Sequence record: MH791411.1
Length of the DNA: 64,000 bases
From: Escherichia phage Ecwhy_1
Strand: one strand, 5' to 3'
Both the position numbers and the translations under genes were made by a program. Shown here one piece after another: positions 40,260 through 56,340 of the stretch. Each line of letters begins with the position of its first letter. Within the stretch, counting starts at the first letter, position 1. Below the pieces are notes generated by a model. That model saw only the letters and a program-made list of their open reading frames with translations. It was not told the DNA's origin and did no database searches.

Positions 40260-40738
40260 AGACCATTTTTCTCCATGTACTCAATGATTTCATCTACGAA
40301 GTTTAAATCCATATAGAATCTATCATCTGCGTCATTGAGTTCATCTTTAAGTACTGTAAAAATTGTAGAACTAAACACGATTCTCTCATTGTACAAAGTA
40401 CTGTACTGGAAGAATTCTTCTTCTGATCTAACATTAAATGTGTCATATTCATATTCATCATCATTAAATCTAGGATGATAGTACTTAAAACTATCAGATG
40501 TATGGAAACAATATGAGATAAAATCCCCTGATGGTGCATCGTCAAGTACACGAATACCACAGAAATTCTCATCTGTAGTATGCAACAAATTGCTATTCAT
40601 TGACAAATAATTTTTGTACGCATAAAGTGTGCATCGTGGGAGAATTATATTCTCTTTAACTGTTACAAAGAACTTATGAAGTTTAATGATATTTTGTGCG
40701 ATTTTTTGTGCATTGCTAAATGATAGGTCTTTGGACAT
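40256..40738 (-). CDS. family A paralog
   Basis: 160 aa; E-E-E-F-F-Q-Y-S-T-L-Y. Confidence 0.55.
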   Translation of the reverse strand: MSKDLSFSNAQKIAQNIIKLHKFFVTVKENIILPRCTLYAYKNYLSMNSNLLHTTDENFCGIRVLDDAPSGDFISYCFHTSDSFKYYHPRFNDDEYEYDTFNVRSEEEFFQYSTLYNERIVFSSTIFTVLKDELNDADDRFYMDLNFVDEIIEYMEKNGL

Positions 40739-40797
40739 TGTGATATAACCCTTTACAATTAATATAAAGAGATTATATCACAAAGATTTGGAGGGTG

Positions 40798-41388
40798 TCA
40801 AGAGTTCTCACGAAGTTCTACCATTTCTTTCCATACTAAATGGTAATCTTCTAAGTCCAGATAGAAGTCTTCATTTAAGTGCTCATATAAGTACTTGTAC
40901 ATGAATAGTACACCTAAATTGTATTCAGTATTAAGTAATGATTGTTGGAAGTAGTTTTCTTCATTTAGTTCTATATCCATGAACTCAAATCTACCTAGAC
41001 CTTTTAATGTACGTATCTCAACATGTGAAGTATCTGTTTTACTGAAGCACATGAATCCACCTCTAAATTCGGGATCATATTCACATTCATACTGTCCACT
41101 GTTATTATAGAAATCTCTATTACCATCCTTATCTTTTGGCTTAACAACTGATACGTGAAGGTCGTCATCTTTGTACATTGTACGTTCTGGCGTTTTCACA
41201 CATTTTAACTTATTTTCTTTAATGTACTTGATAATATCAATTATATCTTGTGCAGTACTGATTGCTGCCTCGAACGTATCCAACTTAAGATGATTGTATT
41301 GTGTACCCTTGTTCTTTATTTTATCTAACATACTAACCTCATAATTCATACATCTTTGATTTGAATTGCATTGGTCCACCAACTTCAC
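40798..41388 (-). CDS. family A paralog
   Basis: 196 aa; E-E-N-Y-F-Q-Q-S-L-L. Confidence 0.55.
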   Translation of the reverse strand: MKLVDQCNSNQRCMNYEVSMLDKIKNKGTQYNHLKLDTFEAAISTAQDIIDIIKYIKENKLKCVKTPERTMYKDDDLHVSVVKPKDKDGNRDFYNNSGQYECEYDPEFRGGFMCFSKTDTSHVEIRTLKGLGRFEFMDIELNEENYFQQSLLNTEYNLGVLFMYKYLYEHLNEDFYLDLEDYHLVWKEMVELRENS

Positions 41389-41677
41389 ATGGATAATTTT
41401 CCATAATACGATTCAAAAGTATCTGGTACTGTTGTAGTACTTCAATTTCCAAATGTATACTACTATCCAGTACTAATGACTCCTGGAACAATTCACCTGT
41501 ATCTAAACATGAAAAATCATTTATAGTTAGCATTGGCTTATCATTGGTACGCAATGTAAATGATTCCTCATTTCGGATTAATGTACAGAATTCATTATGT
41601 TTTCTGTTATAATCCATTTTAACCAATAATAACTTAGTGTGAGTTGCGTACATTATTTTTACTAATTCAGTCTTCAT
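41339..41677 (-). CDS. family A paralog
   Basis: 112 aa; T-G-E-L-F-Q-E-S-L-V. Confidence 0.55.
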   Translation of the reverse strand: MKTELVKIMYATHTKLLLVKMDYNRKHNEFCTLIRNEESFTLRTNDKPMLTINDFSCLDTGELFQESLVLDSSIHLEIEVLQQYQILLNRIMENYPCEVGGPMQFKSKMYEL

Positions 41678-42026
41678 AACGGAATAAAATTCTCCTGTAC
41701 TGCTCCGGCTTAGTACTCAATCTCTTCACCGGATAATTGTCGAAGATCCTTTTCATTTCTTTCTGGATTAAACAAAGAAAATCAAAATCACAATAGTATT
41801 TTTTATCCCATACTAAACTTTCTTGAAATAACTCATCTTCTTGCATTAGCGTAGTATCAATTGTATCTTCACGTGTATTTGAGTACGCTTCATGACATTG
41901 AAAACCATCTTCTGATAATTCTAATGTATATGCCGCCATTTCAAACATATCATCATTTGTCTTTAACGAAAGTAAACAACAAACGTATTTTTTCGTTGTG
42001 TAGTACGTAATACTAATGGTATTCAT
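41667..42026 (-). CDS. family A paralog
   Basis: 119 aa; E-D-E-L-F-Q-E-S-L-V-W-D. Confidence 0.55.
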   Translation of the reverse strand: MNTISITYYTTKKYVCCLLSLKTNDDMFEMAAYTLELSEDGFQCHEAYSNTREDTIDTTLMQEDELFQESLVWDKKYYCDFDFLCLIQKEMKRIFDNYPVKRLSTKPEQYRRILFRYED

Positions 42027-42031
42027 GGCAT

Positions 42032-42634
42032 TTAAACCTCAGTATAAAGCTTACAATAGCTTTCATCGAAATCAAAAATACTTCTCAAGAACTGACAAAG
42101 GTCAGTAAAAATATTTACATTTGCTATATACACATTATCAAATTCTGTTCTTTCGAAGAATGTATGCATAGAATTTGTAATATATCTCATTGCAGATTCA
42201 CGCTGCATTGTTATATCATTTGTGAACATTGCATCTTCATCAGTACTGACTAATTCAATATCAAATGATTGCATATATGGGATACTCTTCCCTAGTGCAA
42301 AGCTATCACCGTATGATGCTTCAACTGCACCTTTAGAATACACCAATTGATATAAGTCCGAAATAGGGTTATAAAAAGTACGACATATTGATGAACATAA
42401 TTTATTATCTATCCAAAAGAAAACCCTATTTGTATTACCGTCAAATGCTATACGCAATCCATCACCATCTAACGATATATCACCATCGAGATTAAAAGAG
42501 AACTGAACTAATGCTTTTTCTAAGTCCATTCTTTTGTGATAAATGATTTCTTGCATATAGATAATATCATTTACTAATTTCTTAAAATACAAATGAACCT
42601 CAGTACTACAACATTTATTTGCATTTAATAACAT
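42032..42634 (-). CDS. family A-like paralog (degenerate)
   Basis: 200 aa; E-D-A-M-F-T-N-D-I. Confidence 0.5.
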   Translation of the reverse strand: MLLNANKCCSTEVHLYFKKLVNDIIYMQEIIYHKRMDLEKALVQFSFNLDGDISLDGDGLRIAFDGNTNRVFFWIDNKLCSSICRTFYNPISDLYQLVYSKGAVEASYGDSFALGKSIPYMQSFDIELVSTDEDAMFTNDITMQRESAMRYITNSMHTFFERTEFDNVYIANVNIFTDLCQFLRSIFDFDESYCKLYTEV

Positions 42635-43221
42635 AGTAGATCCTTATACATTGCATGTATTCTTACAATGTCTCTGTAATAACTCATATCTTCACGATTA
42701 TCATTAAAAACAGTAACACTGAATACAGCAGTACTAATTGAACTATCAACAATGTACTCTTTTAATTTATTATAAAGATATATGCACTTAGTAGATGTAT
42801 CATCCCACATAAGACTATTTTGAAAGATGTTTTCTTCTGTGTTAGGATATAAGTACTGCTCAATCTTGTACTCCAATGAACTATCACAGTTTTTATATAC
42901 AGAAATAGATGGGACATTCATATTGCACATAATACTAATAACATTATCATTGTATGTAGAAATTAAACTGGTACTGGATGCTACACTTTCATCATAATTC
43001 AGTACTGAAATTCTTGCATTATCTGTGCAGTACAGATGTTTCATTCCACCTCTCATAGCCATAGTAAGAAATTTATCAGTGAACCATATTCCTTTTGTTT
43101 TCAGTATAGTTTCATGCATAAGATAAGTTTCAATGAAGATTTTTACACGCTCAAATGCCAAGTCAAGTTCATTGTACATAACGGATATCCTTCTGTAAAG
43201 AATCAATATATTCTTTAACAA
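42625..43221 (-). CDS. family A paralog
   Basis: 198 aa; E-E-N-I-F-Q-N-S-L-M-W-D. Confidence 0.55.
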   Translation of the reverse strand: MLKNILILYRRISVMYNELDLAFERVKIFIETYLMHETILKTKGIWFTDKFLTMAMRGGMKHLYCTDNARISVLNYDESVASSTSLISTYNDNVISIMCNMNVPSISVYKNCDSSLEYKIEQYLYPNTEENIFQNSLMWDDTSTKCIYLYNKLKEYIVDSSISTAVFSVTVFNDNREDMSYYRDIVRIHAMYKDLLCY

Positions 43222-43360
43222 CTTGTTCCTGATACTGTGTGCCCAAATACATCAGTACTTTTAATTCTTTGAATTCAGTACTATATGAGTCAATTTGCAT
43301 CATTTTAGAAGAATATATATTGAATAGTTTAGCAATATCATCTTGGTCTATTATTTTCAT
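43169..43360 (-). CDS. family B paralog (interspersed copy)
   Basis: 63 aa; Y-L-G-T-Q-Y-Q-E-Q-V-V. Confidence 0.45.
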   Translation of the reverse strand: MKIIDQDDIAKLFNIYSSKMMQIDSYSTEFKELKVLMYLGTQYQEQVVKEYIDSLQKDIRYVQ

Positions 43361-43556
43361 ATATTCTCTTCTGGATTAGTTCCTGTAAGTGCTGAATATA
43401 ACCCTTCATTGCAACATCCTGTTTGTTAGAGCCAACGAAGAACAATAGCTTAAAGTCATGGTAATCCATTTTTGGTTTAGTAGTGAACCATATGTCCCAC
43501 ACTGCACTCACAGTTCTCATGTATTCAATTCGATTAAATGTTTTTGAATACTTCAT
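43338..43556 (-). CDS. family B paralog (interspersed copy)
   Basis: 72 aa; F-V-G-S-N-K-Q-D-V. Confidence 0.45.
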   Translation of the reverse strand: MKYSKTFNRIEYMRTVSAVWDIWFTTKPKMDYHDFKLLFFVGSNKQDVAMKGYIQHLQELIQKRIYENNRPR

Positions 43557-44070
43557 CGATGTTCATCGCCAATAAGTTAATATACAAATTACTGTTAAAT
43601 GCAATCTGCAATTCCATATAGAACTGAATGATAGCATAGTCAGGGTCAGTACACGATAGTTGAAAACACTGTTCGTCAAATGCATTGTAACTGTACTTAG
43701 GGATGTGAATTTCACGCTTCAAATCAGGTTGACCCCACTTCATCGCATACACACCAATGTTATTGTTCTTTTTCCTTTTCTTAAATGTTAATTGTTGAAT
43801 ATTTCCAGCGTTGTCTAGGAAAATAGTATTATTCGACACAGGTGCACCAATAGAAAACAATGATGTATCAATGACGTGTTTCTCACGTATCTCACACTTC
43901 TGGAATGCACCATTCCCTTGTAACAGTTTATGGAAATCGTACTTCTCATTAACAACAGTACTAGGATCAATTAATCCAGTACTGCATTTTTTCAGTACTG
44001 GTACGATAGTGCGAATCTTTTTTGATAAATCTTGTAATGCATCATAATCATTAATGTTAATTTTTCTCAA
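43534..44070 (-). CDS. family A paralog
   Basis: 178 aa; D-E-Q-C-F-Q-L-S-C-T. Confidence 0.55.
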   Translation of the reverse strand: MRKININDYDALQDLSKKIRTIVPVLKKCSTGLIDPSTVVNEKYDFHKLLQGNGAFQKCEIREKHVIDTSLFSIGAPVSNNTIFLDNAGNIQQLTFKKRKKNNNIGVYAMKWGQPDLKREIHIPKYSYNAFDEQCFQLSCTDPDYAIIQFYMELQIAFNSNLYINLLAMNIDEVFKNI

Positions 44071-44513
44071 AAGGATGCCTCTTCTATAGTAACGAAATCA
44101 ACTAACCTATCAAGTTTTTCAGTGTCTAGATAAAATATATCCAGTACTGACTTCTGATATAGTACACTAAATGTACATAGATTGTCAAGTGTTCCTTCAT
44201 TATAAACAGTACTTCCCTGGAAGTACCCTTCTTCTGTACTCAGAGATAAAATATCAGAAATTTTAAAAGATTCTTCATTCTCATGACGCTCTATCGTAAC
44301 TTCATCATATTTTCTGTTCAATGAAATATAATCGTATGCTAATTCAATAGTACTACAGTTGTTGTTGCTAGTGTCAAATAAAGAATCAATTGTAATCTTC
44401 GTACCATTAGAAACTTCTCTGCGTTCATCATCTACGTATTCAGGATTTTCTTTGAAGAACTTAACAACTTTTAGAATATCATTTGCTTTCTTGATTGCAC
44501 TTTCATAACTCAT
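44067..44513 (-). CDS. family A paralog
   Basis: 148 aa; E-E-G-Y-F-Q-G-S-T-V-Y. Confidence 0.6.
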   Translation of the reverse strand: MSYESAIKKANDILKVVKFFKENPEYVDDERREVSNGTKITIDSLFDTSNNNCSTIELAYDYISLNRKYDEVTIERHENEESFKISDILSLSTEEGYFQGSTVYNEGTLDNLCTFSVLYQKSVLDIFYLDTEKLDRLVDFVTIEEASF

Positions 44514-44952
44514 TTTTTCTGGACTCCATATATATCACCTGATTTAGTTCATATACATAATCTAAATCAATGAATATAGAATTATTAAAGTTCTCTTTCA
44601 GGAATGCATTAAAAACTACTAAAGCTCTTAACGCCCCATTTGGGTATATAGTACTGTACTGGAAGTAAGCATCTTCTGAATTTAAAAATAGTACTTCTTC
44701 TTCTGTGAATTCAAAATATTTGCCATCTTCCTCTATAGAATAGAAAGTTCCAGAATCCCATACGAAGTACTTGAATTCCAAATCATAATCATGGGACTCG
44801 TACTTATATTCATTACCTAATCCTAGTATATCTGTACCAACACTTATAGTACTAATATATGCCCCTTTATAGTCTAAGTACTTTACATTATTTTGAAAGA
44901 ACTTTACTATATTAACTAATTCTTCAGCGTGCTTAAGATCACTTTCGTACAT
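44503..44952 (-). CDS. family A paralog
   Basis: 149 aa; E-D-A-Y-F-Q-Y-S-T-I-Y. Confidence 0.6.
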   Translation of the reverse strand: MYESDLKHAEELVNIVKFFQNNVKYLDYKGAYISTISVGTDILGLGNEYKYESHDYDLEFKYFVWDSGTFYSIEEDGKYFEFTEEEVLFLNSEDAYFQYSTIYPNGALRALVVFNAFLKENFNNSIFIDLDYVYELNQVIYMESRKNEL

Positions 44953-45266
44953 TATATTTCAATCTCTATATATTTTTGGGTAATTAAGTAATCCCAGTAG
45001 TACTTCACTTGTTTTTGTATCTCAAGTAAAGCATAAAAATTAATTCTCTTATCCCATACAAGTGATTCCTGAAAAAGAAATGTTTCATGATCATCTCTGT
45101 AATCACATTCAAGGAAGTCAGGAATATAATCACAATCGTGAAGATATTCAATCATTAAAGATTCATTACATCTTCTAACGGCAAGGTGCTGGAAATTATC
45201 ATGATCGAAGAAATACATTAAACTAATTGTACCTGGAATGTACTGAATACTGTATAATAATTTCAT
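44952..45266 (-). CDS. family A paralog
   Basis: 104 aa; E-T-F-L-F-Q-E-S-L-V-W-D. Confidence 0.55.
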   Translation of the reverse strand: MKLLYSIQYIPGTISLMYFFDHDNFQHLAVRRCNESLMIEYLHDCDYIPDFLECDYRDDHETFLFQESLVWDKRINFYALLEIQKQVKYYWDYLITQKYIEIEI

Positions 45267-45706
45267 CGTTTACCCTTATGTGCTGCACGTACATATTCAT
45301 AATCCAAATAAAATCTTGTGCTATCAATACTTTTAAAGTACCACATAATAACTAAAGTATCTAGTACTTCATCATCATACAAAGTACTATTCTGAAAGTA
45401 ATACTCTTCACTATCCCACGGACCTTTCAGTACTTCAAAGTTCAATTTTAAAGGTCTGCTGCGATTATAAAAACGGATTTCACCACCATAAGCATAACTG
45501 ATAAATTCTGCATCTGGATTGTATTGTGAAAAATCTGCGGGACTTTTGGAATTCAGCCCAAGAATAACTGTAGTTGTGGTAAAATCACTATCCTTGTAGT
45601 AGTTACCATTCTCGGCTTTGTATACTTCTTCGAACTTCCCAGCCTTGATATCTTCAATATATACCTGTAGTTCTTTTGCTTTATCCAGAGCACTTTGTAA
45701 TGACAT
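45263..45706 (-). CDS. family A paralog (MSLxSAL subgroup)
   Basis: 147 aa; G-P-W-D-S-E-E-Y-Y-F-Q-N-S-T-L-Y-D. Confidence 0.6.
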   Translation of the reverse strand: MSLQSALDKAKELQVYIEDIKAGKFEEVYKAENGNYYKDSDFTTTTVILGLNSKSPADFSQYNPDAEFISYAYGGEIRFYNRSRPLKLNFEVLKGPWDSEEYYFQNSTLYDDEVLDTLVIMWYFKSIDSTRFYLDYEYVRAAHKGKR

Positions 45707-46172
45707 TATCTTCCCCTACAGTATTCTCTACGTATTCATAATCGAAATAGAAACTATCAGAACCAATACTTTTAAAGTACCACATAATTACAATAACATC
45801 TAATTCTTCTTCATTGTACACAGTACTGTTCTGGAAGTAATATTCTTCACTATCCCACGGACCTTCCAGTACTGAATACGGAATGATTGTGTCATAATCA
45901 TCGTAATCAGGACTGTAAATTATAATATCTTCATCTCTACAATAACTAATGTACTGATTGTACATATGATATTCACAGTCATCAGTATCACCCGTATCAG
46001 TGTGTAGTACTAACGTTTCTGCACATATCTCTGACTCATCATAATCGTCGCGGTCTTTTACAAAAAATTCAGTATCAGATGTTTTATACACACCAGGCAC
46101 TGAACCTTCTTGTACCATAATCATGTACTCATGAATCTTCTTTGCTTCTTTCAATGCACTTTCTAATGACAT
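45681..46172 (-). CDS. family A paralog (MSLxSAL subgroup)
   Basis: 163 aa; G-P-W-D-S-E-E-Y-Y-F-Q-N-S-T-V-Y. Confidence 0.6.
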   Translation of the reverse strand: MSLESALKEAKKIHEYMIMVQEGSVPGVYKTSDTEFFVKDRDDYDESEICAETLVLHTDTGDTDDCEYHMYNQYISYCRDEDIIIYSPDYDDYDTIIPYSVLEGPWDSEEYYFQNSTVYNEEELDVIVIMWYFKSIGSDSFYFDYEYVENTVGEDNVITKCSG

Positions 46173-46174
46173 TA

Positions 46175-46615
46175 CTAATCCCCTGTACTTAAATATTCAC
46201 ATGCTCCCCAGTCAAGGAAGAAGGGTTCAAAATTCAATTCCTTAAAGTACCACAAAACAACCAAGGAATCAAGCATTTCTTGGTTAAAAATAAGACTCTG
46301 TTGGAAGTAATACTCTTCAGTACCCCACGGCCCATCAAGTACCCCGAAGTCAACAGGTGTATTTGATGTGTCAAAAGTAATCTTAGTACCTGGAATATAT
46401 ACAAAAAAACTAGTATATTGACTACATGAAGAGTACTGTATAGTATTGTCTTTATCATGGCCCATAAGTAAAATATCATCAGAGTATGTCTTTATACCTG
46501 ATAGATAATACTCATTACCAAATGCACTTACTTTATCACCATAGAAACCACTTTTTATGTTATCGTGGAAGTGATGTATTTTGTGTGCCAGTTTAAGTGC
46601 ACTTGCTAAACTCAT
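46175..46615 (-). CDS. family A paralog (MSLxSAL subgroup)
   Basis: 146 aa; G-P-W-G-T-E-E-Y-Y-F-Q-Q-S-L-I. Confidence 0.6.
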   Translation of the reverse strand: MSLASALKLAHKIHHFHDNIKSGFYGDKVSAFGNEYYLSGIKTYSDDILLMGHDKDNTIQYSSCSQYTSFFVYIPGTKITFDTSNTPVDFGVLDGPWGTEEYYFQQSLIFNQEMLDSLVVLWYFKELNFEPFFLDWGACEYLSTGD

Positions 46616-47082
46616 ATATCCTCTTTAATAACTCGTAGTAGATCCAAGTCCAAATAGAAGCTAGGACAATCTGTATTATTAAAGTACCACAGAATGACAA
46701 GCTTGTCAAGCACATATTCCTCGTAGATAGTATTCTGCTGGAAGTAGAACTCTTCACTTCCCCAGTCATTATCCAGTACTGAATACGGAAGATGTTTCTC
46801 TGCTGCACCAGTTATAATGTCAGTATATTGTATTAAAATATCAGCATCACGACAGAAGTACATGTAATTATCTTCCAGATTAACATCACACCCAGTGAGT
46901 GTTGTTTCAGAAGAATCTAAGTTTTCTTCGTACATGTGAATGTACTCACTACTGTCATCGTATATCATTCGACAATAAGCTTTACCTTCCTTGAATAGAT
47001 ACCCATTGAGTTGATTGAGTACTATTTCCTTTTTACATAAATCAATTAACTTAGCAATTTCTAATGCTCTTTCTAAACTCAT
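46612..47082 (-). CDS. family A paralog (MSLxSAL subgroup)
   Basis: 156 aa; W-G-S-E-E-F-Y-F-Q-Q-N-T-I-Y. Confidence 0.6.
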   Translation of the reverse strand: MSLERALEIAKLIDLCKKEIVLNQLNGYLFKEGKAYCRMIYDDSSEYIHMYEENLDSSETTLTGCDVNLEDNYMYFCRDADILIQYTDIITGAAEKHLPYSVLDNDWGSEEFYFQQNTIYEEYVLDKLVILWYFNNTDCPSFYLDLDLLRVIKEDI

Positions 47083-47083
47083 T

Positions 47084-47575
47084 TTAACCCCTGTTAATAC
47101 CGTTATCTACAGTTTTCTTTACGTATTTGTAATCGAAATAGAAGTTCCCAGAACCAATACTTTTAAAGTACCACATAATTATAATAACATCAAGTACTTC
47201 ATCATCGTAAACAGTACTTTGTTGGAAGTAATACTCTTCACTATCCCACGGACCTTCCAGTACTTCACTCGGAATTATAATGTCATCGGAATCGCTATCA
47301 GTACTGTAGATGGTATCTGTATCATTAATATAGACCATGTACTCATTATGCATATTAATGAAGCATTCATAATCATTAGGGTCGGTATCCAGTACACACG
47401 TTTCTGTATCCAGTACGCACGTTTCTGTATCTGAGTCGTCATTATTAAGGAGGTTATCCGGTACATAATATTGAGTACTTGTGTCTTTGAAAACACCGTA
47501 AACTGAACCTTCTTTTGCCATATTCATGTACTCATGAATCTTCTTTGCTTTTTCCAATGAACTCTGTAATGTCAT
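47084..47575 (-). CDS. family A paralog (MSLxSAL subgroup)
   Basis: 163 aa; G-P-W-D-S-E-E-Y-Y-F-Q-Q-S-T-V-Y-D. Confidence 0.6.
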   Translation of the reverse strand: MTLQSSLEKAKKIHEYMNMAKEGSVYGVFKDTSTQYYVPDNLLNNDDSDTETCVLDTETCVLDTDPNDYECFINMHNEYMVYINDTDTIYSTDSDSDDIIIPSEVLEGPWDSEEYYFQQSTVYDDEVLDVIIIMWYFKSIGSGNFYFDYKYVKKTVDNGINRG

Positions 47576-47584
47576 TTTATAATC

Positions 47585-47944
47585 TCATATATTGAAATAA
47601 TAATTACTTGTTGTTGGTGTAGATGTATCAAAGGTGTTTTCTTTAACATATCTCTTCATTTCATTTTGTATAAAAATCATATCTTCTATTGTACATGAGT
47701 ACTTATTCTTGTCAAACACCAAAGAAGCTTGAAATAGTTCAACATCATCCAGTACTGTATAATCTGTAATACTTTCAGAGTTATAGTCGAAGTCATCATG
47801 CAATACATCAATGAAATTAAAACACAAATCCGAGTACTGAATATATAAACTCAACTCATGTTCCGAGTCACCCTTGACAAGATTACAGCACAAATCCCAC
47901 CCCGTTCTGGACTTGCAAACGTACATCGAATAATCAAATGTCAT
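47585..47944 (-). CDS. family A paralog (short YTVLD subgroup)
   Basis: 119 aa; Y-T-V-L-D-D-V-E-L-F-Q-A-S-L-V-F-D-K. Confidence 0.6.
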   Translation of the reverse strand: MTFDYSMYVCKSRTGWDLCCNLVKGDSEHELSLYIQYSDLCFNFIDVLHDDFDYNSESITDYTVLDDVELFQASLVFDKNKYSCTIEDMIFIQNEMKRYVKENTFDTSTPTTSNYYFNI

Positions 47945-48300
47945 TCTGGAATTCCTATATTGAATTTGTATTCTTGATTAATACTGACATTGCCTTTATT
48001 CAAAGCAGCATACTCTTTCATTTCATTTTGTATTGCAATAACTTCTTCAAATGTACACAAGTACTTCTTATCAAATACTAATGACTCCTGAAATAGTTCA
48101 GCCTCATCAAGTACTGTATAATCCGGCATATCCTGATGCGGATACTGTAATGAATTGTAATCAATGAATGTAAATTTACCCTGAGTGAAATGAATATACT
48201 CATTTGCACTGTGCATTAAATCACCTTTGTTTAAATTACAAAAGTACTGAAAACTGTTCTTAAAAGAATGTACTGATATTACAAAATCAAATTCCATCAC
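47941..48300 (-). CDS. family A paralog (short YTVLD subgroup)
   Basis: 119 aa; Y-T-V-L-D-E-A-E-L-F-Q-E-S-L-V-F-D-K-K. Confidence 0.6.
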   Translation of the reverse strand: MMEFDFVISVHSFKNSFQYFCNLNKGDLMHSANEYIHFTQGKFTFIDYNSLQYPHQDMPDYTVLDEAELFQESLVFDKKYLCTFEEVIAIQNEMKEYAALNKGNVSINQEYKFNIGIPE

Positions 48301-48710
48301 TCTTCCCCTAGATTGAAATGATTACAAAAATCAACTTCACCAGTACTGCACCAGATATCTATACATTCCCTGTGAATACATTTAATTCTACGCTGTAATT
48401 CAATCATCTCTTCTAATGTACAGATGTACTTCTTATCAAATACTAATGCCTCCTGAAACAGTGCAGCATCATCAAGTACTGTATAGTCCAACATCTCGGT
48501 TGCTTTACCCCTAAACCCAGTATTAAAATCCATCAAATAAAAGTCAGCATTTTCGTATTTTATAAGCTTGTCCCTTGTGTAGTTTAAATCACCCTTGTAT
48601 AAGTTAGAGTGCGTAACTAACTCACCAGTGTACATCCATGTCCTTGCACAAAATTCATTATATTTTATTTCCATCTTAATCTCTACTATAATTAATAAGG
48701 TAAACTCCAA
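48297..48710 (-). CDS. family A paralog (short YTVLD subgroup)
   Basis: 137 aa; Y-T-V-L-D-D-A-A-L-F-Q-E-A-L-V-F-D-K-K. Confidence 0.6.
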   Translation of the reverse strand: MEFTLLIIVEIKMEIKYNEFCARTWMYTGELVTHSNLYKGDLNYTRDKLIKYENADFYLMDFNTGFRGKATEMLDYTVLDDAALFQEALVFDKKYICTLEEMIELQRRIKCIHRECIDIWCSTGEVDFCNHFNLGEE

Positions 48711-48868
48711 TATAAGGAGAACGTTCGCGGCGGGGTATTTTTTGTTTCAGGAAACATGAACTGTACTCTGAAAACACATTTTAAAACTTTATATTAAACA
48801 TATACCTTAACATGTTTTTCAGCGAAAATTTTTTTGACCCCCCAGCGGCCTGTGAAAATGAAACGTCT

Positions 48869-49084
48869 CTATTTATTCAGCCTAGAAAGCTTGATTTCTT
48901 CAATCCTTTTCATCGCACAAAGCCTTCGACTCGTCTTCTCGTATATATTCAATACTCGTTGTACTGCATCATCTGCAACTGCAATCTGAACCAAATATGT
49001 ATCCTTCAAAATCGAATCCATCATGTATTCAAAACCTTTCACACTATAACAATATACCACTTCCGGCTCTTCAAACGTAATCAT
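48869..49084 (-). CDS. hypothetical small protein
   Basis: 71 aa ORF. Confidence 0.4.
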   Translation of the reverse strand: MITFEEPEVVYCYSVKGFEYMMDSILKDTYLVQIAVADDAVQRVLNIYEKTSRRLCAMKRIEEIKLSRLNK

Positions 49085-49274
49085 AACTCCAATCCCCTAT
49101 TCCATCTAACCTTCTAAGATATCTTGCGTAAATTATTTCGAAATATCTGTGCAACGAAATTACGGATTGCTCATAATCATCATTCCTGTACATTGTGCAT
49201 GTAAGAAAATCATTTAAACCGTAATCTAAACTGCACTTGAACTTCTCCTTTGCAACATCTCTAAAATTATCCAT
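49071..49274 (-). CDS. hypothetical small protein
   Basis: 67 aa ORF; AGAGGA RBS. Confidence 0.4.
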   Translation of the reverse strand: MDNFRDVAKEKFKCSLDYGLNDFLTCTMYRNDDYEQSVISLHRYFEIIYARYLRRLDGIGDWSYDYV

Positions 49275-49437
49275 AATATGTCCTCTGCACAGCGTAGGTG
49301 TACTGTGAACTCAGCACCGTTAATAGGTAATCTATGTTGTAAGCACGATTTCCTCGTTGACTAGCACGACTAGAATAAAGAATATTATCCACATATGTAT
49401 CGAACTGTTCTTCAAATAACTCTTTCATCAGCACCCT

Positions 49438-50064
49438 TTAGCACCCTTTAACAACTTTTGAAATGTAATCTTCTAATGCACCAATGTTCTTTGTATTCGT
49501 TCGAACTAAAAGATAACTTAAATTCTCGAACTCCTGAACATAATGCTTAACAGCGTACATGCATCGTAATTCAAAATCTGTATGAACCGTTTTGTACTGA
49601 AATAACATCTCTTCTGAAGCCTCTAAAAGCTCTGTAGCTTGTTCTGTACTGAACTTAAAGGGATTCTGTACTCCTGAACTAAAACACTTTTGTTCGTTCG
49701 TCTGGACACCCTGTGATAGATATAATCCTGTACTACCATCTTGTGTTGATATCGAATTGAAACCATTACTTGCAACCATTAAATCTGAACTCAATACAAA
49801 TAATAATTTATCTTCCTTATGAATTAATAAATCTGACTTCAGGGATTTTATTCCTGTACTGGTTATATCACCTATACTAAGATTGTCACTGAACTTCTCA
49901 GCGTTGTTCGCAATGCTCTGGACAAGATTTTTTAATCTCTTAATGGCACTTCTGTCTTTTTCTAATGTATCTAATAAACTCATTGAACTCATTGTACTTT
50001 CCTTACATATTTGTACCGAACAAAACGGAACTTTGAATGCCATTAATCGACACTTCATGTACAT
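49438..50064 (-). CDS. family A paralog
   Basis: 208 aa; E-E-M-L-F-Q-Y-K-T-V. Confidence 0.55.
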   Translation of the reverse strand: MYMKCRLMAFKVPFCSVQICKESTMSSMSLLDTLEKDRSAIKRLKNLVQSIANNAEKFSDNLSIGDITSTGIKSLKSDLLIHKEDKLLFVLSSDLMVASNGFNSISTQDGSTGLYLSQGVQTNEQKCFSSGVQNPFKFSTEQATELLEASEEMLFQYKTVHTDFELRCMYAVKHYVQEFENLSYLLVRTNTKNIGALEDYISKVVKGC

Positions 50065-50347
50065 ATATATTTTGTCTGAATACCTGAAGCAATTGAACTA
50101 AACTCTGTTGCATAATAATATGCATCGCTAAATTATCAAAGGCCGTTTCGTGTTGGAATCGTGCAGCTTCATCTTCTATGAAATTCGGAACTTGGACTGG
50201 ATTCTCAAAATTTGTCCTTGTACTGAACTGTACATCATTGTCCTGTACCTTAATACCATATGAATTATCATTGTTATCAACTACATCAAATTCAATTAAA
50301 CTACCATCTTTACTGACGTTTACTATATAAACTGAAAATCTACTCAT
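50003..50347 (-). CDS. family A paralog
   Basis: 114 aa; E-A-A-R-F-Q-H-E-T-A. Confidence 0.5.
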   Translation of the reverse strand: MSRFSVYIVNVSKDGSLIEFDVVDNNDNSYGIKVQDNDVQFSTRTNFENPVQVPNFIEDEAARFQHETAFDNLAMHIIMQQSLVQLLQVFRQNIYVHEVSINGIQSSVLFGTNM

Positions 50348-50862
50348 AATCCTATTTCCTTTAAATCTTCCAAAAATGTTTCATAATCACTTAAGGAAAA
50401 AAAGATATCCGTATCGATGTTCGCATCTAATACATTATACAAATTCTGCATCTGTAACACATCAGGAGCATCAATCAATGATTGCTGGAAATATGCAGCT
50501 TCATCTTCTAAAATATCCCTGAATGTTCTCTCTCGTACTCTGTGGTGTACTGAATTGAATATTGATTTCTCATCCTTAAGCATTGGTAGGTATCGAATGT
50601 ACATGTGTTCTCTTAGCTCAGGACTGATGGAACCCCTGAACTGTAACACGTATTCGAAGCACATAGCAACATCCTGAAGGTAATTGGCACTGTAATTATT
50701 GCTGTAAACAATCTTATGACTTCTGAACTCATCATCATTTCTGAACCAATTGTCACCTACTTTGGTGTACTTATGACTAAGCAATCCACCCTCTAACGCT
50801 TTGATGATCTTCAAAATGTTGTGTGCAAATGCATATGATGTATTGTACTTGGCCTGATACAT
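50344..50862 (-). CDS. family A paralog
   Basis: Track ORF trimmed to ATG 50860-50862 (MYQAKYN) with GAGG RBS; E-A-A-Y-F-Q-Q-S-L-I. Confidence 0.5.
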   Translation of the reverse strand: MYQAKYNTSYAFAHNILKIIKALEGGLLSHKYTKVGDNWFRNDDEFRSHKIVYSNNYSANYLQDVAMCFEYVLQFRGSISPELREHMYIRYLPMLKDEKSIFNSVHHRVRERTFRDILEDEAAYFQQSLIDAPDVLQMQNLYNVLDANIDTDIFFSLSDYETFLEDLKEIGL

Positions 50863-50875
50863 GTGTGCCTCAACC

Positions 50876-51070
50876 TTATCTTGTGTTAAAATATTCACTG
50901 AAATGATTATAACACAAAAGCACCACGATGTTAAGCACTCTGTTGTCAAAATCATCTTGTGATGTAGGATGCAATGACGCATTGATGTTAAAATTCACTA
51001 TATCATTGTGGAATTGGTATGTGAACAAATCAAACTTCGTATGCCTTTGTTTGATATCATAGGCGGTCAT
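50876..51070 (-). CDS. hypothetical small protein
   Basis: 64 aa ORF between two family A genes. Confidence 0.3.
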   Translation of the reverse strand: MTAYDIKQRHTKFDLFTYQFHNDIVNFNINASLHPTSQDDFDNRVLNIVVLLCYNHFSEYFNTR

Positions 51071-51071
51071 A

Positions 51072-51680
51072 TTATATATTCAACCCTTTAACAATGGAAA
51101 TAAATTCTTTGTAAACATTTTCAGGTAAAGCTCTACTACCATAAAGAACACTAAATTCAGGTAACATATCCGAAATCTCTTTCGCTAAATTTATTTCATC
51201 CCTGAACATTTGCACAGGCATGATATCCTGTACCAATGATAACTGAAAGAAAAATGATTCAATATCTTCATGCACCTCTGAATTTAAATAAATCTCTTCT
51301 GGAAACTGGGCTGTACTGTAATAATAAAATACGTCAATTCTTTTTTCATTATTTTGTACAAGAGGTAAATTTCTTTCGTCTCTCTTATTAATATTTGTTT
51401 TCCATGACTCAATGTTATTCGGAACCCAAAACTCATAAGGTGTCTTCTCTCCTGAAATATTATCCAGCTTCAATCCATAATATTCACTTTCGCCGTACTT
51501 TTGCTTCAAAACAATACCTGTACTACTAATGTTTACAATGTACGTATCAACAATCCCTTCTGTGGTAAAAGGAATATTTAACTCTGAACCTTCAGGGTAC
51601 TTAGCATTGAATGCATCTAATGCTTTACTTAGCACTGGAATTGCACTTGCACTGTACTTCATTAATTGGTCTATGTTCAT
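51072..51680 (-). CDS. family A paralog
   Basis: 202 aa; E-S-F-F-F-Q-L-S-L-V. Confidence 0.55.
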   Translation of the reverse strand: MNIDQLMKYSASAIPVLSKALDAFNAKYPEGSELNIPFTTEGIVDTYIVNISSTGIVLKQKYGESEYYGLKLDNISGEKTPYEFWVPNNIESWKTNINKRDERNLPLVQNNEKRIDVFYYYSTAQFPEEIYLNSEVHEDIESFFFQLSLVQDIMPVQMFRDEINLAKEISDMLPEFSVLYGSRALPENVYKEFISIVKGLNI

Positions 51681-52321
51681 TTTAATTCCCCTGTAATCAC
51701 TGCATTTACTGCACTTGATGCAAATAAACTGATATTTGAACGATACATATCGTACACTGTACTTTCTTTCTTGTGCACAATGAAATCATAAAGATCAACA
51801 AATGCAGGAATAATAATCTTGAATGATTTATTTGGGTACGTCCCAAAATCAACTGTACTCAATTTTGCAACGAGCATAACAACAAAGATTTCTTCTGGAC
51901 TATACACTGTACTGTACTGAAAATAATCCTCTGCACTCATGGCACTCATTGCATTTATATCTTGTGTTTGTAATGTAATATTAAGACAATCAAAAATATA
52001 ATAAAACTCTGATTTGTTTTGTATTTTGTATTTGTCAATTGGGGTATCTCTCATGAACCATAAACGATCTTGTCCATAAAAAGGAATGATTGAATTTGGG
52101 GAAGCCAGAAATACTTCTTCTCTATCAATATCCTTTAACTCAATTTGCATACCGGATGAATTGGCAATAATTAATTCATTAAAAATATAATGAACCTTGT
52201 GTACAATCTCTTGTACTGAATTGAAATCATCTGGTATTTTAAAATTTTCCATAGGTATCTCCTTAAAATGATTACACATTGTACCATGCATTTGTACTCG
52301 TGTCAAACAAAAAAAGCCCAT
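51677..52321 (-). CDS. family A paralog (start uncertain)
   Basis: 214 aa; A-E-D-Y-F-Q-Y-S-T-V-Y. Confidence 0.55.
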   Translation of the reverse strand: MGFFCLTRVQMHGTMCNHFKEIPMENFKIPDDFNSVQEIVHKVHYIFNELIIANSSGMQIELKDIDREEVFLASPNSIIPFYGQDRLWFMRDTPIDKYKIQNKSEFYYIFDCLNITLQTQDINAMSAMSAEDYFQYSTVYSPEEIFVVMLVAKLSTVDFGTYPNKSFKIIIPAFVDLYDFIVHKKESTVYDMYRSNISLFASSAVNAVITGELK

Positions 52322-52324
52322 ATC

Positions 52325-52822
52325 TTACGATACAGGCATGTTTATTTGAATTTCATTGTACAAATCATCAATATATAGACATGAAAACGATAAACTTTCT
52401 TTAACTATATTGTTGTGATAAAGCATTTTAAATGCAATATAGAAAAATAAATCAATATCATCATGTACTAAATTCTGCTGGAACCACCACTCTTCTGTTA
52501 AATCTTGTGCATTAAAATCATCAGGAACTACAATTGACGACATATCAGCATCTTCTTTGTACTCAAACCACATGTCGTCATTTGGATAACGTTCATGCTT
52601 CTCTGGGTAACAATTGCTGGGATTAAATGCTAAAATATAAAATGCCGTCGCAGAATGTTCTTTATTATAAAATGAATTATTCCACACCTGATACCTTTCA
52701 CCAACATCAAACTCTTTTGATACTGATGTTATTGCACATAATGTACGATATATTGTTTCTATTTTGTGAACAAATTTAAAGGCTGCATCTAAACTGAACT
52801 CTAAATCAGACATGCGGTGCAT
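52325..52822 (-). CDS. family A paralog
   Basis: 165 aa; T-E-E-W-W-F-Q-Q-N-L-V. Confidence 0.55.
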   Translation of the reverse strand: MHRMSDLEFSLDAAFKFVHKIETIYRTLCAITSVSKEFDVGERYQVWNNSFYNKEHSATAFYILAFNPSNCYPEKHERYPNDDMWFEYKEDADMSSIVVPDDFNAQDLTEEWWFQQNLVHDDIDLFFYIAFKMLYHNNIVKESLSFSCLYIDDLYNEIQINMPVS

Positions 52823-53142
52823 AAAATTACCTCAACTAAAATAAGAACGGTATTGAATTCGATGCAACCTTTGATACCTTGATTGTACATGTACTTTGCT
52901 ACTACATATTTCTGTACTAAATTATAATTATTAAATTCCTCAAAATTGTAATTTAGAATGAAATTTGTACTCAAAAATAACTTATGCATCTCTAATGCAC
53001 TCTGATAATATTTGTACAACTCTCTGATATCAATACTTTGTAAATCACTTTGTTCATATCTATGATAAGGAATGGCTTCAATTTCAATACTATAAAACCA
53101 TTCTCTTAACTTCTTAATATCAAATGTATTATTCAGCTTCAT
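52801..53142 (-). CDS. hypothetical protein
   Basis: 113 aa ORF, no family motif. Confidence 0.45.
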   Translation of the reverse strand: MKLNNTFDIKKLREWFYSIEIEAIPYHRYEQSDLQSIDIRELYKYYQSALEMHKLFLSTNFILNYNFEEFNNYNLVQKYVVAKYMYNQGIKGCIEFNTVLILVEVILCTACLI

Positions 53143-53698
53143 AACTCAATACCTCCATTAAGCACTCATAAACACCATCAATCGCATAAGCACAAAAACT
53201 GAAATTAATTTTGTTATTCTTGTGTAATGGACTATTGTATACTGTACTCAACATAACACTATAAAACAAAGAACGTTCATGTGTAAATAATGATTCCTGA
53301 AAAAATGCTTCCTCTGATTTAATTTTATTATATTCAATCGATTGATCATTAGAATAAAATGAATCTTGATTTGAATTGTACCATGTGTAATCCAAATCAT
53401 TCTTTGATATAACTGGTGTTGGATTAAACTGTAAAAGACTAATAACACTACGGGCATTTGGGGTATCAGGTGTATTGAATCGTTTGTCAAAATAACTTGT
53501 GCACGCAATATGTGAATCAAAATCAGATGGTTTAAACCCCATGAATGCGTTAATGATTCTTGTATATGGTTTTTTATTATGTGCTGCTTTCTGTACATTA
53601 TATAAGGCTGCAACAATACAAGCTAACTTTTGTCCCATTAGGATTGCATTAGCGTAGGTGTACTGAATTTCATTGCTGGTACGGTACTTCGAGATCAT
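53129..53698 (-). CDS. family A paralog
   Basis: 189 aa; S-E-E-A-F-F-Q-E-S-L-F. Confidence 0.55.
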   Translation of the reverse strand: MISKYRTSNEIQYTYANAILMGQKLACIVAALYNVQKAAHNKKPYTRIINAFMGFKPSDFDSHIACTSYFDKRFNTPDTPNARSVISLLQFNPTPVISKNDLDYTWYNSNQDSFYSNDQSIEYNKIKSEEAFFQESLFTHERSLFYSVMLSTVYNSPLHKNNKINFSFCAYAIDGVYECLMEVLSYEAE

Positions 53699-53996: not shown

Positions 53997-54016
53997 AACT
54001 ATTGTACTCATTGCTT

Positions 54017-54878: not shown

Positions 54879-54889
54879 ATTGGTATTCC

Positions 54890-55072
54890 TTAATTTGGTG
54901 GATTTGGATGTAATAACTGATCTATATAATTTAAATGTTCTATTGTAACTAATGAAAGATAATAATTGTAATTATCTATACCACCCTTTAAATGTATATT
55001 GTAATACATCTTGATACTTACTAATAAAGAATCATTTAAATCATTTATTGCTTTTGTATTAACGGTTTTCAT
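54890..55072 (-). CDS. hypothetical small protein
   Basis: 60 aa ORF. Confidence 0.35.
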   Translation of the reverse strand: MKTVNTKAINDLNDSLLVSIKMYYNIHLKGGIDNYNYYLSLVTIEHLNYIDQLLHPNPPN

Positions 55073-56331: not shown

Positions 56332-56340
56332 ATTCTTCTC

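What the first reader, a model, noticed from the sequence alone, without database searches (positions are those of the whole stretch)
45263..48710. Blocks of very recent tandem duplication inside the arrays
Five consecutive genes at 45263-47575 share both N-terminus (M-S-L-x-S-A-L-x-K-A-K-x-I-H-E-Y) and C-terminus (G-P-W-D-S-E-E-Y-Y-F-Q-x-S-T-V-Y ... M-W-Y-F-K-S-I-G-S ... F-Y-F-D-Y-E-Y-V). Three at 47585-48710 share Y-T-V-L-D-x-x-E-L-F-Q-E-S-L-V-F-D-K-K-Y. The pair 53670-54328 shares M-K-Y-K-M-L-Y-T-L...Y-V-E-L-E. In family B, 59817-60520 is a trio (M-Q-N-E-M-x-Y-L-T ... S-A-E-V-L-F-Q-R-L-P-Y-I-L-G-T-D-R-Q-E-Y) and 62796-63217 a pair. Recent duplicates next to old diverged copies indicate ongoing amplification and diversification.
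Basis: seen in the sequence. Interest (0 to 1): 0.55.

Follow-up and report, generated by a model that had tools for sequence, protein, structure and literature searches.

The report
Old tandem gene copies, jumbo phage
The flagged blocks are the youngest branches of two large families of small unknown-function genes in an E. coli jumbo phage; the copies are old, intact and conserved, not freshly duplicated, and relatives still gain and lose whole copies at repeated gene-boundary sequences.

Summary
The window comes from an Asteriusvirus (PBECO4/121Q-type) E. coli jumbo phage. All flagged blocks exist and are exactly the strongest internal DNA repeats of the window.

They are not "very recent":
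- The best pairs are 73-78% identical in DNA (51-64% in protein), with synonymous divergence 0.56-0.71. The other pairs are at or near saturation.
- Each of the eight genes at 45263-48710 has its own positional ortholog in PBECO4, 121Q and EC.P1.
- The nearest sequenced relatives differ from the window by dS of only 0.02-0.05.
- All copies are intact and under purifying selection (ortholog dN/dS 0.08-0.58). Assembly artefact and decay are therefore excluded.

The blocks belong to two multigene families:
- Family A: at least 40 copies, invariant F-Q in an EExxFQxS motif, confident predicted fold with no PDB match.
- Family B: at least 31 copies, LGTNYQE motif, three-helix bundle.
- Both also occur in a Klebsiella RaK2-like phage, but most copies are lineage-specific.

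Turnover does continue in the genus. Relatives differ by whole-gene cassettes at these very blocks, and each indel is bounded by an 8-36 nt direct repeat at a gene junction (85 nt in Turkey3). This points to unequal recombination at conserved gene boundaries. Function is inferred only: non-virion, probably early host-interaction proteins.

The parts
45263..45706 (-). Family A, 'MSL' subfamily, copy 1 (147 aa)
   Evidence: ORF. It is 42-44% identical to copies 2 and 5. Orthologs in EC.P1, Turkey3, PBECO4 and 121Q form one clade. phrog_9317/12674-type.
45681..46172 (-). Family A, MSL subfamily, copy 2 (163 aa); closest paralog of copy 5
   Evidence: 60% aa and 73% nt identity to 47084-47575, dS 0.71. 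phrog_9317, E 1.4e-62. Ortholog dN/dS is 0.08 against PBECO4.
46175..46615 (-). Family A, MSL subfamily, copy 3 (146 aa)
   Evidence: The ortholog is 95% identical in PBECO4, with dN/dS 0.16.
46612..47082 (-). Family A, MSL subfamily, copy 4 (156 aa); the only copy with a clear ortholog in divergent phage JNE01
   Evidence: The NJ tree groups JNE01_13700_14137 with this copy.
47084..47575 (-). Family A, MSL subfamily, copy 5 (163 aa); absent from Turkey3-type relatives
   Evidence: 99% identical in PBECO4. In about eight records the best match is only 55-58%, which is the copy-2 paralog. In Turkey3 it is replaced by a 61-aa ORF plus a short-form A gene. AF2 model pLDDT 90.1, pTM 0.84.
47382..47423 (-). 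21-nt x2 internal tandem repeat inside copy 5 (DTETCVL DTETCVL)
   Evidence: the repeat finder family D20, 90% identity. Present in the PBECO4, 121Q and EC.P1 orthologs.
47585..47944 (-). Family A short form, trio member 1 (119 aa); mosaic allele
   Evidence: 46% identical to member 2. This allele is 93-96% nt identical in the CMSTMSU/fEgEco12/Turkey3 group but 82% in the EC.P1 group.
47941..48300 (-). Family A short form, trio member 2 (119 aa)
   Evidence: phrog_15629, E 1e-54. In Turkey3 its first 28 codons are duplicated: an 85-nt direct repeat at 94% identity flanks a 529-nt insertion at window position 48215.
48297..48710 (-). Family A short form, trio member 3 (ORF 137 aa; likely start near 48674)
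   Evidence: The PBECO4 annotation is shorter. 94-95% identical in PBECO4 and 121Q, 77-78% in EC.P1 and Turkey3.
53670..54328 (-). Family A short-form pair (53670-54020 and 54017-54328)
   Evidence: 59% aa and 73% nt identity, dS 0.56. A single gene in PBECO4 and 121Q. Both copies are present in 7 of 35 records.
59817..60520 (-). Family B trio (59817-60074, 60064-60294, 60284-60520)
   Evidence: 47-64% aa identity; the best pair is 77% nt with dS 0.56. Two genes in PBECO4 and 121Q, three in EC.P1, three in a different order in Turkey3. phrog_4148.
62796..63217 (-). Family B pair (62796-63008 and 63005-63217)
   Evidence: 51% aa identity, dS 1.5. The order is swapped in PBECO4 and the same in 121Q, EC.P1 and Turkey3.
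17882..57866 (-). Span of family A (at least 40 members, EExxFQxS motif, 103-229 aa, median pI 4.8)
   Evidence: BLASTP clustering and HMM iteration. F and Q are invariant in all 40. pI.
43169..63814 (-). Span of family B (at least 31 members, LGTNYQE motif, 63-94 aa, median pI 8.7)
   Evidence: AF2 model pLDDT 92.2, three helices.
54312..54312 (.). Junction where EC.P1 and Turkey3 carry an extra 583-nt cassette (168-aa family A gene)
   Evidence: Flanks are 99.5% identical. The cassette is bounded by a 36-nt perfect direct repeat in EC.P1.
57852..57852 (.). Junction where EC.P1 and Turkey3 carry an extra 353-nt cassette (112-aa copy, 72-74% identical to g57525)
   Evidence: Bounded by a 16-nt perfect direct repeat plus extended homology.
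61434..61434 (.). Junction where EC.P1 carries an extra 235-nt family B cassette
   Evidence: Bounded by a 26-nt perfect direct repeat.
62579..62579 (.). Junction where EC.P1 and Turkey3 carry an extra 215-nt cassette (74-aa gene)
   Evidence: Bounded by an 8-nt direct repeat at the overlapping stop/start.

Best explanation
The blocks are the youngest surviving branches of two large multigene families of an Asteriusvirus jumbo phage, evolving by birth and death. Family A has at least 40 copies and family B at least 31. Shown: copies arise and disappear as whole-gene cassettes by unequal recombination between short sequences repeated at gene boundaries. These are the overlapping stop/start and the first or last codons that neighbouring paralogs share. 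After duplication each copy diverged, mainly in the middle of the protein, and was then held by purifying selection. As a result every copy now has its own ortholog across the genus. The duplications that gave the flagged blocks date from about the radiation of the PBECO4/121Q/EC.P1 lineages (paralog dS 0.56-0.71 at best), not from the recent past. Gain, loss, replacement and re-ordering of cassettes continue among circulating relatives. Inferred: the proteins are non-virion and probably early-expressed. They would be small binding proteins built on a conserved scaffold with variable surfaces, each copy specialised for a different host or defence target. The arrays begin just inside the left 21-kb terminal repeat and are transcribed inward as tightly coupled operons.
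For: Identity of the phage: 35 Asteriusvirus records match at 88-96%.

Families.

Age of the copies:
- Paralog nt identity is at most 78% and dS at least 0.56.
- The NJ tree gives ortholog clades per copy, and the copy 2/5 split postdates JNE01.
- N-terminal and C-terminal nucleotide trees also group by copy, not by genome.
- Window-EC.P1 median dS is 0.024 and window-Turkey3 0.049.

Selection: ortholog dN/dS medians are 0.25 (A), 0.39 (B) and 0.20 (other genes), with none above 1 in A. It is uniform at 0.18-0.24 along the protein.

Turnover in relatives.

Mechanism:
- Four gene-sized indels lie in flanks that are 97-99.5% identical.
- Each is bounded by a direct repeat of 16, 36, 26 or 8 nt at a gene junction.
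- Turkey3 has a 529-nt insertion flanked by an 85-nt repeat at 94% identity, leaving a truncated 54-aa duplicate.
- Neighbours are more alike than random.
- 18 junctions are 4-nt overlaps.

Lineage-specific expansion: 28 of 40 A members and 30 of 31 B members have their best match inside their own genome rather than in Klebsiella phage RCIP0023. That phage has at least 28 A and at least 14 B members in the syntenic region.

Function-related evidence:
- No protein between gp347 and gp549 appears in the phAPEC6 virion proteome table (PMC7247149); the 47084 ortholog is gp442c.
- fEgEco12 has mapped ends with a 20,993-bp terminal repeat (PMC13070987). Its arrays lie at about 24-40 kb and the RNA ligase at 68 kb.
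- Fold matches are only to uncharacterised proteins of RaK2-type phages.
Against: Function is not demonstrated:
- There is no transcript, interaction or phenotype data.
- Sigma-70-like sites are not enriched (92 found against 88.8 expected).
- 'Early' rests on genome position and on analogy with phage CBB (PMC5259590).

The direction of each indel (gain or loss) is mostly unresolved. The second copies are about as far from their neighbour as from the single-copy orthologs of 121Q and PBECO4. Some 'extra' copies may therefore be old genes lost elsewhere, or imported by recombination between phages.

Nei-Gojobori dS above about 1 is saturated and unreliable. The uneven pS along paralogs may partly be misalignment of the variable middle.
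Confidence: 0.72

Rival explanations
1. One reading: the blocks are very recent in-situ tandem duplications, showing amplification now under way in this genome.
For: The blocks are the most similar paralogs in the window. They sit head to tail with a period of one gene.
Against: Nucleotide identity is at most 78% over whole genes, and dS is at least 0.56. Every copy of the 45263-48710 block has an ortholog in PBECO4, 121Q and EC.P1. The closest relatives differ by dS 0.02-0.05. The closest pair (copies 2 and 5) is not even adjacent.
Confidence: 0.04
2. Assembly artefact: the repeat units were expanded or collapsed by the assembler.
For: None beyond the general risk that comes with tandem repeats.
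Against: Copies differ at 22-50% of nucleotides, so reads map uniquely. The same gene order is found in 26 of 35 independently assembled genomes that cover at least 80% of the region.
Confidence: 0.01
3. Decaying redundant copies: relaxed selection on the way to pseudogenes.
For: Relatives contain one truncated 54-aa duplicate (Turkey3). Copies are lost in some lineages.
Against: All window copies are intact. Ortholog dN/dS is 0.08-0.58 in the eight genes at 45263-48710 and the family median is 0.25, like neighbouring non-family genes at 0.20. The constraint is uniform along the protein.
Confidence: 0.03
4. Copy differences come mainly from exchange of diverged cassettes between co-infecting relatives (mosaicism), not from duplication within a lineage.
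For: Ortholog dS jumps from 0.02 to above 1 between adjacent genes. The window's 47585 allele matches the Turkey3/CMSTMSU group, while its flanks match EC.P1. Extra copies are equally distant from the neighbour and from single-copy orthologs.
Against: Exchange alone cannot create paralogs. Neighbours are significantly more alike. 28 of 40 A members and 30 of 31 B members are closest to a paralog in their own genome. Unequal exchange between two genomes at the junction repeats is in effect the same mechanism.
Confidence: 0.3
5. Old copies look younger at their ends because partial gene conversion homogenised the N-terminal and C-terminal segments.
For: Between copies 2 and 5, pS is 0.22-0.31 at both ends and 0.65-0.83 in the middle. 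Copy 1 against copies 2 and 5 gives 0.35-0.44 in the C-terminal part and 0.8-0.95 elsewhere. Among orthologs dS is uniform at 0.32-0.34, so mutation rate or codon constraint does not explain the pattern.
Against: The end-segment trees still group by orthologous copy, so any conversion predates the split of the isolates. The middle aligns poorly (17-47% aa), which inflates pS.
Confidence: 0.2
6. The invariant EExx[YF]FQ|x motif is a cleavage site for a 3C/TEV-like protease, and the family are processed precursors.
For: E-x-x-Y-x-Q matches the TEV consensus at P6, P3 and P1 (own knowledge). F and Q are invariant in 40 paralogs.
Against: The residue after Q is N, Q, Y, E, L, M or G rather than a small one. 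The motif lies in a confidently modelled short helix with an S-x-E-E capping box (residues 113-119). No 3C-like protease was found or looked for.
Confidence: 0.02

Closest known systems
Hyperplastic regions of T4-type phages, with modular shuffling by PeSL cassettes (PMC2839356, PMC4122927)
   Same: Both are blocks of small genes of unknown function between conserved core genes. Near-identical phages differ by insertion, deletion or replacement of whole genes bounded by short repeated sequences.
   Different: Here the genes are mostly members of two huge paralogous families rather than unrelated ORFans. The recombination substrates are the coding gene junctions themselves (overlapping stop/start plus shared terminal codons), not intergenic promoter-stem-loop cassettes. 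There is almost no intergenic DNA.
Poxvirus genomic accordions (e.g. PMC3953438, PMC9724558)
   Same: Both involve tandem copy-number change of host-interaction genes by recombination, and both occur in a large dsDNA virus.
   Different: Accordions are transient arrays of near-identical copies seen within populations. Here the copies are 22-50% diverged in DNA, fixed, and individually conserved across species.
African swine fever virus multigene families (MGF110/360/505; PMC8875878)
   Same: Both have dozens of diverged paralogs clustered next to a genome end. Copy number varies between isolates, and a host-interaction role is presumed or shown.
   Different: This is a phage rather than a eukaryotic virus, the proteins are unrelated, and function here is unknown.
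Lineage-specific expansions noted in other jumbo phages: about 35 zinc-ribbon copies in Bacillus phage G (PMC7824862), 'nearly 10% paralogues' in RaK2 (PMC3622015), 22 paralogous ORFs in CBB (PMC5259590)
   Same: It is the same phenomenon, and for RaK2 and CBB the same phage group. Families A and B are present in the RaK2-like phage RCIP0023.
   Different: Those papers mention paralogs only in general terms. In the papers read, the two families, their motifs, folds, size and turnover mechanism were not described.
PHROG families phrog_9317, 12674, 15629, 13866, 33987, 19795 (A) and phrog_4148 (B)
   Same: Direct sequence membership, with E values from 1e-13 to 1e-64.
   Different: All are 'unknown function'. 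PHROGs splits family A into several groups that the HMM and motif analysis unite.

Membership tests
Recent tandem amplification (genomic-accordion type) | Copies near-identical in DNA (roughly 95% or more) | tested here: not met
   The best whole-gene pairs are 73-78% identical. No repeat of 80 nt or more exceeds 87%.
Recent tandem amplification (genomic-accordion type) | Head-to-tail units with a period of one gene | tested here: met
   Five copies spaced 437-484 nt apart.
Recent tandem amplification (genomic-accordion type) | Copy number differs between closely related isolates | tested here: met
Birth-and-death multigene family | Many paralogs with graded divergence, neighbours more similar than distant copies | tested here: met
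   There are 40 A copies and 31 B copies. Adjacent copies are more alike than all pairs (28.4% vs 25.4% for A, 31.7% vs 27.9% for B, p<=0.0005).
Birth-and-death multigene family | Individual copies conserved as orthologs under purifying selection | tested here: met
   Ortholog clades per copy. dN/dS medians are 0.25 (A) and 0.39 (B).
Birth-and-death multigene family | Lineage-specific gains and losses, and occasional truncated remnants | tested here: met
   Cassette indels. A 54-aa truncated duplicate in Turkey3. 28 of 40 A members and 30 of 31 B members are closest to a paralog in their own genome.
T4-type hyperplastic region with PeSL-mediated shuffling | Variable small genes whose indels are bounded by short repeats | tested here: met
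   Direct repeats of 8-36 nt, and 85 nt in Turkey3, at all five junctions examined.
T4-type hyperplastic region with PeSL-mediated shuffling | The repeats are intergenic early-promoter plus stem-loop cassettes | tested here: not met
   The repeats are coding junctions. Most genes overlap by 4-17 nt. Promoter-like and terminator-like sites are not enriched.
T4-type hyperplastic region with PeSL-mediated shuffling | Early transcription | not testable with these tools
   No expression data are available. The only support is position next to the left terminal repeat.
PHROG phrog_9317 / phrog_15629 / phrog_4148 | Significant full-length HMM match | tested here: met
   E values of 2e-64, 1e-54 and 3e-23.
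Pfam / NCBIfam / PDB-represented families | Any curated family or solved relative, by sequence or by fold | tested here: not met
Virion (structural or injected) proteins | Detected in purified particles | tested here: not met
   The phAPEC6 virion proteome table lists nothing between gp347 and gp549 (PMC7247149). The 47084 ortholog is gp442c. Absence from mass spectrometry is not proof.
3C/TEV-type protease substrates | E-x-x-Y-x-Q followed by a small residue in an exposed segment | tested here: not met
   The residue after Q is variable and mostly large or polar. The motif lies inside a confident helix.

The most novel reading that the evidence does not exclude
Families A and B together form a phage 'multigene family' arsenal of more than 70 genes, roughly one gene in eight of the genome. 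It sits at the leading end of the chromosome. Each copy would be a specialised binder built on a previously unseen fold, neutralising a different host factor or defence system. The repertoire would be re-dealt between phages as cassettes by recombination at the conserved gene junctions. That would make it a bacterial-virus counterpart of the ASFV and poxvirus host-range families.
Probability: 0.3. Interest if true: 0.7.

Novelty: new member of a known kind. Interest (0 to 1): 0.38.

Why it matters
The finding as stated, that duplication is happening now, is not what the data show. Its correction is ordinary gene-family evolution.

What is worth keeping is the wider picture. A 350-kb coliphage devotes about 46 kb to two families of small proteins with no known relatives. 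One of them has a confidently predicted fold that is absent from the PDB. Close relatives swap, lose and gain these genes as precise cassettes.

If these proteins are host-takeover or anti-defence factors, the arrays are a ready-made library of diversified binders. They would also be a tractable system for studying how large phages expand their genomes. For phage-therapy candidates of this genus, they mark the part of the genome most likely to differ between otherwise near-identical isolates.

Tried and rejected
- Pfam, NCBIfam and PHROGs gave no function.
- PDB sequence searches with both family profiles gave nothing useful.
- The afdb50 fold library was unavailable.
- A profile-profile comparison showed that A and B are unrelated.
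- The word-indexed 5.8-billion-protein search suggested a genus-restricted family (43 hits). This was corrected by the scan of the syntenic RaK2-like region and by BFVD fold hits. The exhaustive search still finds only 158 clusters.
- The promoter/terminator scan showed no enrichment over shuffles, and intergenic gaps gave no shared promoter.
- There are no tRNAs or Rfam families in the window.
- Concerted evolution since the isolates split is rejected by the end-segment trees.
- Ongoing diversifying selection in the variable middle is rejected by the uniform ortholog dN/dS.
- One literature search with generic terms returned only irrelevant papers.

Full report
**What the window is.** The region 45263-48710 matches 35 phage records at 88-96% nucleotide identity. 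All are Escherichia or Salmonella phages of the PBECO4/121Q type (genus Asteriusvirus), and 26 of them cover at least 80% of the region in the same arrangement. The window is 93% coding on the minus strand. Its lower-coordinate part encodes T4-like enzymes such as DNA ligase, RNA ligase and polynucleotide kinase. From about 17.9 kb to its end it is dominated by small genes annotated everywhere as hypothetical proteins.

**Checking the observation.**
They are 45716-46195 vs 47107-47599 (73.0%), 53737-54002 vs 54072-54334 (77.6%), 59845-60088 vs 60291-60533 (78.3%), and then shorter segments of the same blocks.
- The repeat finder recovers a five-copy family with a period of 437-484 nt, which is one gene.
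- Protein identities are 31-60% in the five-gene block, 35-46% in the trio, 59% in the A pair, 47-64% in the B trio and 51% in the B pair.
- The closest pair of the five, 45681 and 47084, is separated by two other copies.
However, no repeat of at least 80 nt exceeds 87% identity.

**The families.**
- BLASTP clustering and HMM iteration give family A with 40 members (17882-57866) and family B with 31 members (43169-63814). A third small family has six members at 20442-22581.
- In family A, the F and Q of an [ST]xEExxFQxS motif are invariant in all 40 copies, although mean column identity is only 13%.
- Family B shares MKxL..EY and LGTNYQE.
- A is acidic (median pI 4.8) and B basic (median pI 8.7). 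The two are unrelated by profile comparison.
- Adjacent members are more alike than randomly ordered members (p<=0.0005), as expected if copies arise next to their parents.

**How old the copies are.**
- Nei-Gojobori estimates give dS of 0.71 (45681/47084), 0.56 (53670/54017) and 0.56 (59817/60284). The remaining pairs range from 0.77 to saturation.
- Median ortholog dS between the window and EC.P1 is 0.024. To Turkey3 it is 0.049. To PBECO4 and 121Q it is about 0.2-0.6, depending on the gene class.
- Each of the eight genes at 45263-48710 has a positional ortholog of 69-100% identity in EC.P1, PBECO4 and 121Q, whereas paralogs are 30-60% identical.
- An NJ tree places every copy in its own ortholog clade. 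The divergent phage JNE01 has only three or four copies of this subfamily, one of them the clear ortholog of copy 4 and one sister to copies 2+5.
- The youngest duplication in the block therefore postdates the JNE01 split but predates the PBECO4/121Q/EC.P1 radiation. 'Very recent' is not supported.

**Selection.**
- Between orthologs, dN/dS medians are 0.25 (A), 0.39 (B) and 0.20 (other genes). No family A gene exceeds 1, and the eight focal genes range from 0.08 to 0.58.
- Splitting the five MSL genes into N-terminal, middle and C-terminal parts gives dN/dS of 0.19, 0.24 and 0.18, with uniform dS of 0.32-0.34.
- The variable middle is thus as constrained today as the conserved ends. The copies diverged and were then fixed.
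- Between paralogs, synonymous difference is uneven: 0.22-0.31 at the ends of copies 2 and 5, against 0.65-0.83 in the middle.
- Since ortholog dS is uniform, this points to old partial gene conversion, or to misalignment of the middle. Trees of the end segments alone still group by copy, so nothing of the kind has happened since the isolates diverged.

**Turnover among relatives.**
- About eight relatives (Turkey3, fEgEco12, WPEC3/5, vB_Ec-M-J, ph0011, TH47, CMSTMSU) lack copy 47084. In Turkey3 a 61-aa ORF and a short-form A gene occupy its place.
- PBECO4 and 121Q have one gene at the position of the pair 53670/54017, and two at the B trio. PBECO4 has the B pair in reversed order.
- Both copies of the A pair occur in only 7 of 35 records.
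- Conversely, EC.P1 and Turkey3 carry genes the window lacks. These are a 168-aa A gene next to 54318, a 112-aa copy 72-74% identical to 57525, and extra small genes in the B array.
- Ortholog dS changes from 0.02 to above 1 between adjacent genes. The window's 47585 allele belongs to the Turkey3/CMSTMSU group while its neighbours match EC.P1. The arrays are therefore also mosaics of exchanged alleles.

**Mechanism of gain and loss.**
- Four indels between the window and EC.P1 are 353, 583, 235 and 215 nt long. They lie in flanks 97-99.5% identical and break at gene boundaries.
- In EC.P1 each cassette is bounded by a perfect direct repeat of 16, 36, 26 or 8 nt. The repeat consists of the stop/start overlap plus the first or last codons shared by neighbouring paralogs.
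- In Turkey3 a 529-nt insertion is flanked by an 85-nt repeat at 94% identity, which leaves a truncated 54-aa duplicate of the 47941 gene.
- Most genes overlap their neighbour, most often by 4 nt.
- Unequal recombination at these conserved junctions explains why units are whole genes.

**What the proteins might be.**
- Curated libraries give nothing, and PHROGs gives only 'unknown function' families.
- The AlphaFold2 model of the 47084 protein, using the 40 paralogs as alignment, is confident (pLDDT 90.1, pTM 0.84). It has an N-terminal helix, a six-stranded sheet region and a C-terminal helical part. The FQ motif sits in a short helix at residues 113-119.
- Foldseek against viral models finds only uncharacterised proteins of RaK2, GAP32, Serratia BF, Yersinia fHe-Yen9 and 121Q.
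- Scanning the region upstream of the RNA ligase in Klebsiella phage RCIP0023 with the window-derived HMMs finds at least 28 A members with the same motif and at least 14 B members. Even so, 28 of 40 A copies and 30 of 31 B copies of the window are closest to a paralog in their own genome.
- An exhaustive profile search of 1.84 billion representative proteins finds only 158 clusters.
- Family B models as a three-helix bundle (pLDDT 92) with only generic matches.
- The phAPEC6 virion proteome lists no protein from this part of the genome (PMC7247149).
- In fEgEco12, whose ends were mapped and which has a 20,993-bp terminal repeat (PMC13070987), the B array lies at about 24 kb, the five-gene block at 37-40 kb and the RNA ligase at 68 kb. 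All read inward from the left end.
- For the related phage CBB the equivalent region was suggested to be early (PMC5259590).
- From these points I infer, but cannot show, that the arrays encode early, non-structural host-interaction proteins.

**Comparison with what is known.** The pattern is that of a birth-and-death multigene family. The nearest phage precedent is the hyperplastic regions of T4-type phages, where whole genes are shuffled at short repeated cassettes (PMC2839356, PMC4122927). Here, however, the repeats are coding junctions and the genes are paralogs. Poxvirus accordions share the recombination logic but not the divergence of copies. ASFV multigene families share the architecture. 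Paralogs in RaK2-type phages have been noted only in passing (PMC3622015, PMC5259590, PMC7247149).

**Verdict.** The finding is a new, well-documented member of a known kind. As formulated (very recent duplication) it is not supported. The wider arrays deserve moderate interest.

Noticed in passing
window 47382-47423: A 21-nt unit repeated twice (90% identical) inside gene 47084-47575 encodes DTETCVL-DTETCVL. It is conserved in the PBECO4, 121Q and EC.P1 orthologs, so it is not new either.
   Followed up: yes
family A motif, e.g. window 47210-47240 and all 40 members: The invariant core EExx[YF]FQ resembles the TEV/3C protease recognition pattern E-x-x-Y-x-Q (own knowledge). The variable residue after Q and its place inside a confident helix argue for a structural role.
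   Followed up: partly
window 20442-22581: A third tandem family of six genes of about 90-100 aa (20442, 21178, 21425, 21747, 22055, 22312) was found by BLASTP and HMM iteration.
   Followed up: partly
window 10310-17925: Several proteins of about 100 aa lie scattered between enzyme genes (10310, 11327, 13398, 15659, 17617). By eye they share an N-terminal helix plus a beta-rich C-terminal half. An HMM built from them did not recruit more members.
   Followed up: partly
window 43000-63500 compared with PBECO4 (L005): The mosaic is extreme. Ortholog dS jumps between adjacent genes from about 0.02 (47084) to 0.56 (45681) to saturation (44952, 60505). 44503-44952 has no ortholog in PBECO4 or 121Q, which have an unrelated 102-aa gene at that position.
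   Followed up: partly
window about 63800-64000: The last family B gene ends at 63814. By coordinate transfer this corresponds to about 21 kb in fEgEco12, close to the inner edge of its 20,993-bp direct terminal repeat. The arrays therefore start right after the terminal repeat.
   Followed up: partly
window 17882-18571: This is an outlying family A member (229 aa) next to the RNA ligase gene, about 11 kb from the next member at 29655. It has a conserved counterpart at the same place in PBECO4 and 121Q.
   Followed up: no
window 58001-62000: AT skew drops to about -0.20 to -0.22 across the family B array, against -0.03 to -0.09 elsewhere. GC skew there is near zero.
   Followed up: no
EC.P1 locus L008 7000-7809 (between the equivalents of window 56331 and 56341): EC.P1 carries a 269-aa gene with no counterpart in the window, Turkey3, PBECO4, 121Q or JNE01.
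   Followed up: no
JNE01 locus L007 (reverse-complement coordinates 12178-15418): In this divergent Asteriusvirus, long MSL-type and short trio-type family A genes alternate (long, short, long, short) instead of forming separate blocks. This hints that the ancestral duplicated unit may have been a long+short pair.
   Followed up: no
window 48297-48710 and 53670-54020: The mechanical ORF starts (TTG at 48710, GTG at 54020) are probably too far upstream. Internal ATGs at about 48674 (MEIKYNEF) and 53996 (MKYKMLYTL) fit better. For 48297-48710 the PBECO4 annotation is shorter. For 53670-54020 the internal ATG gives the N-terminus shared with its paralog 54017-54328.
   Followed up: partly
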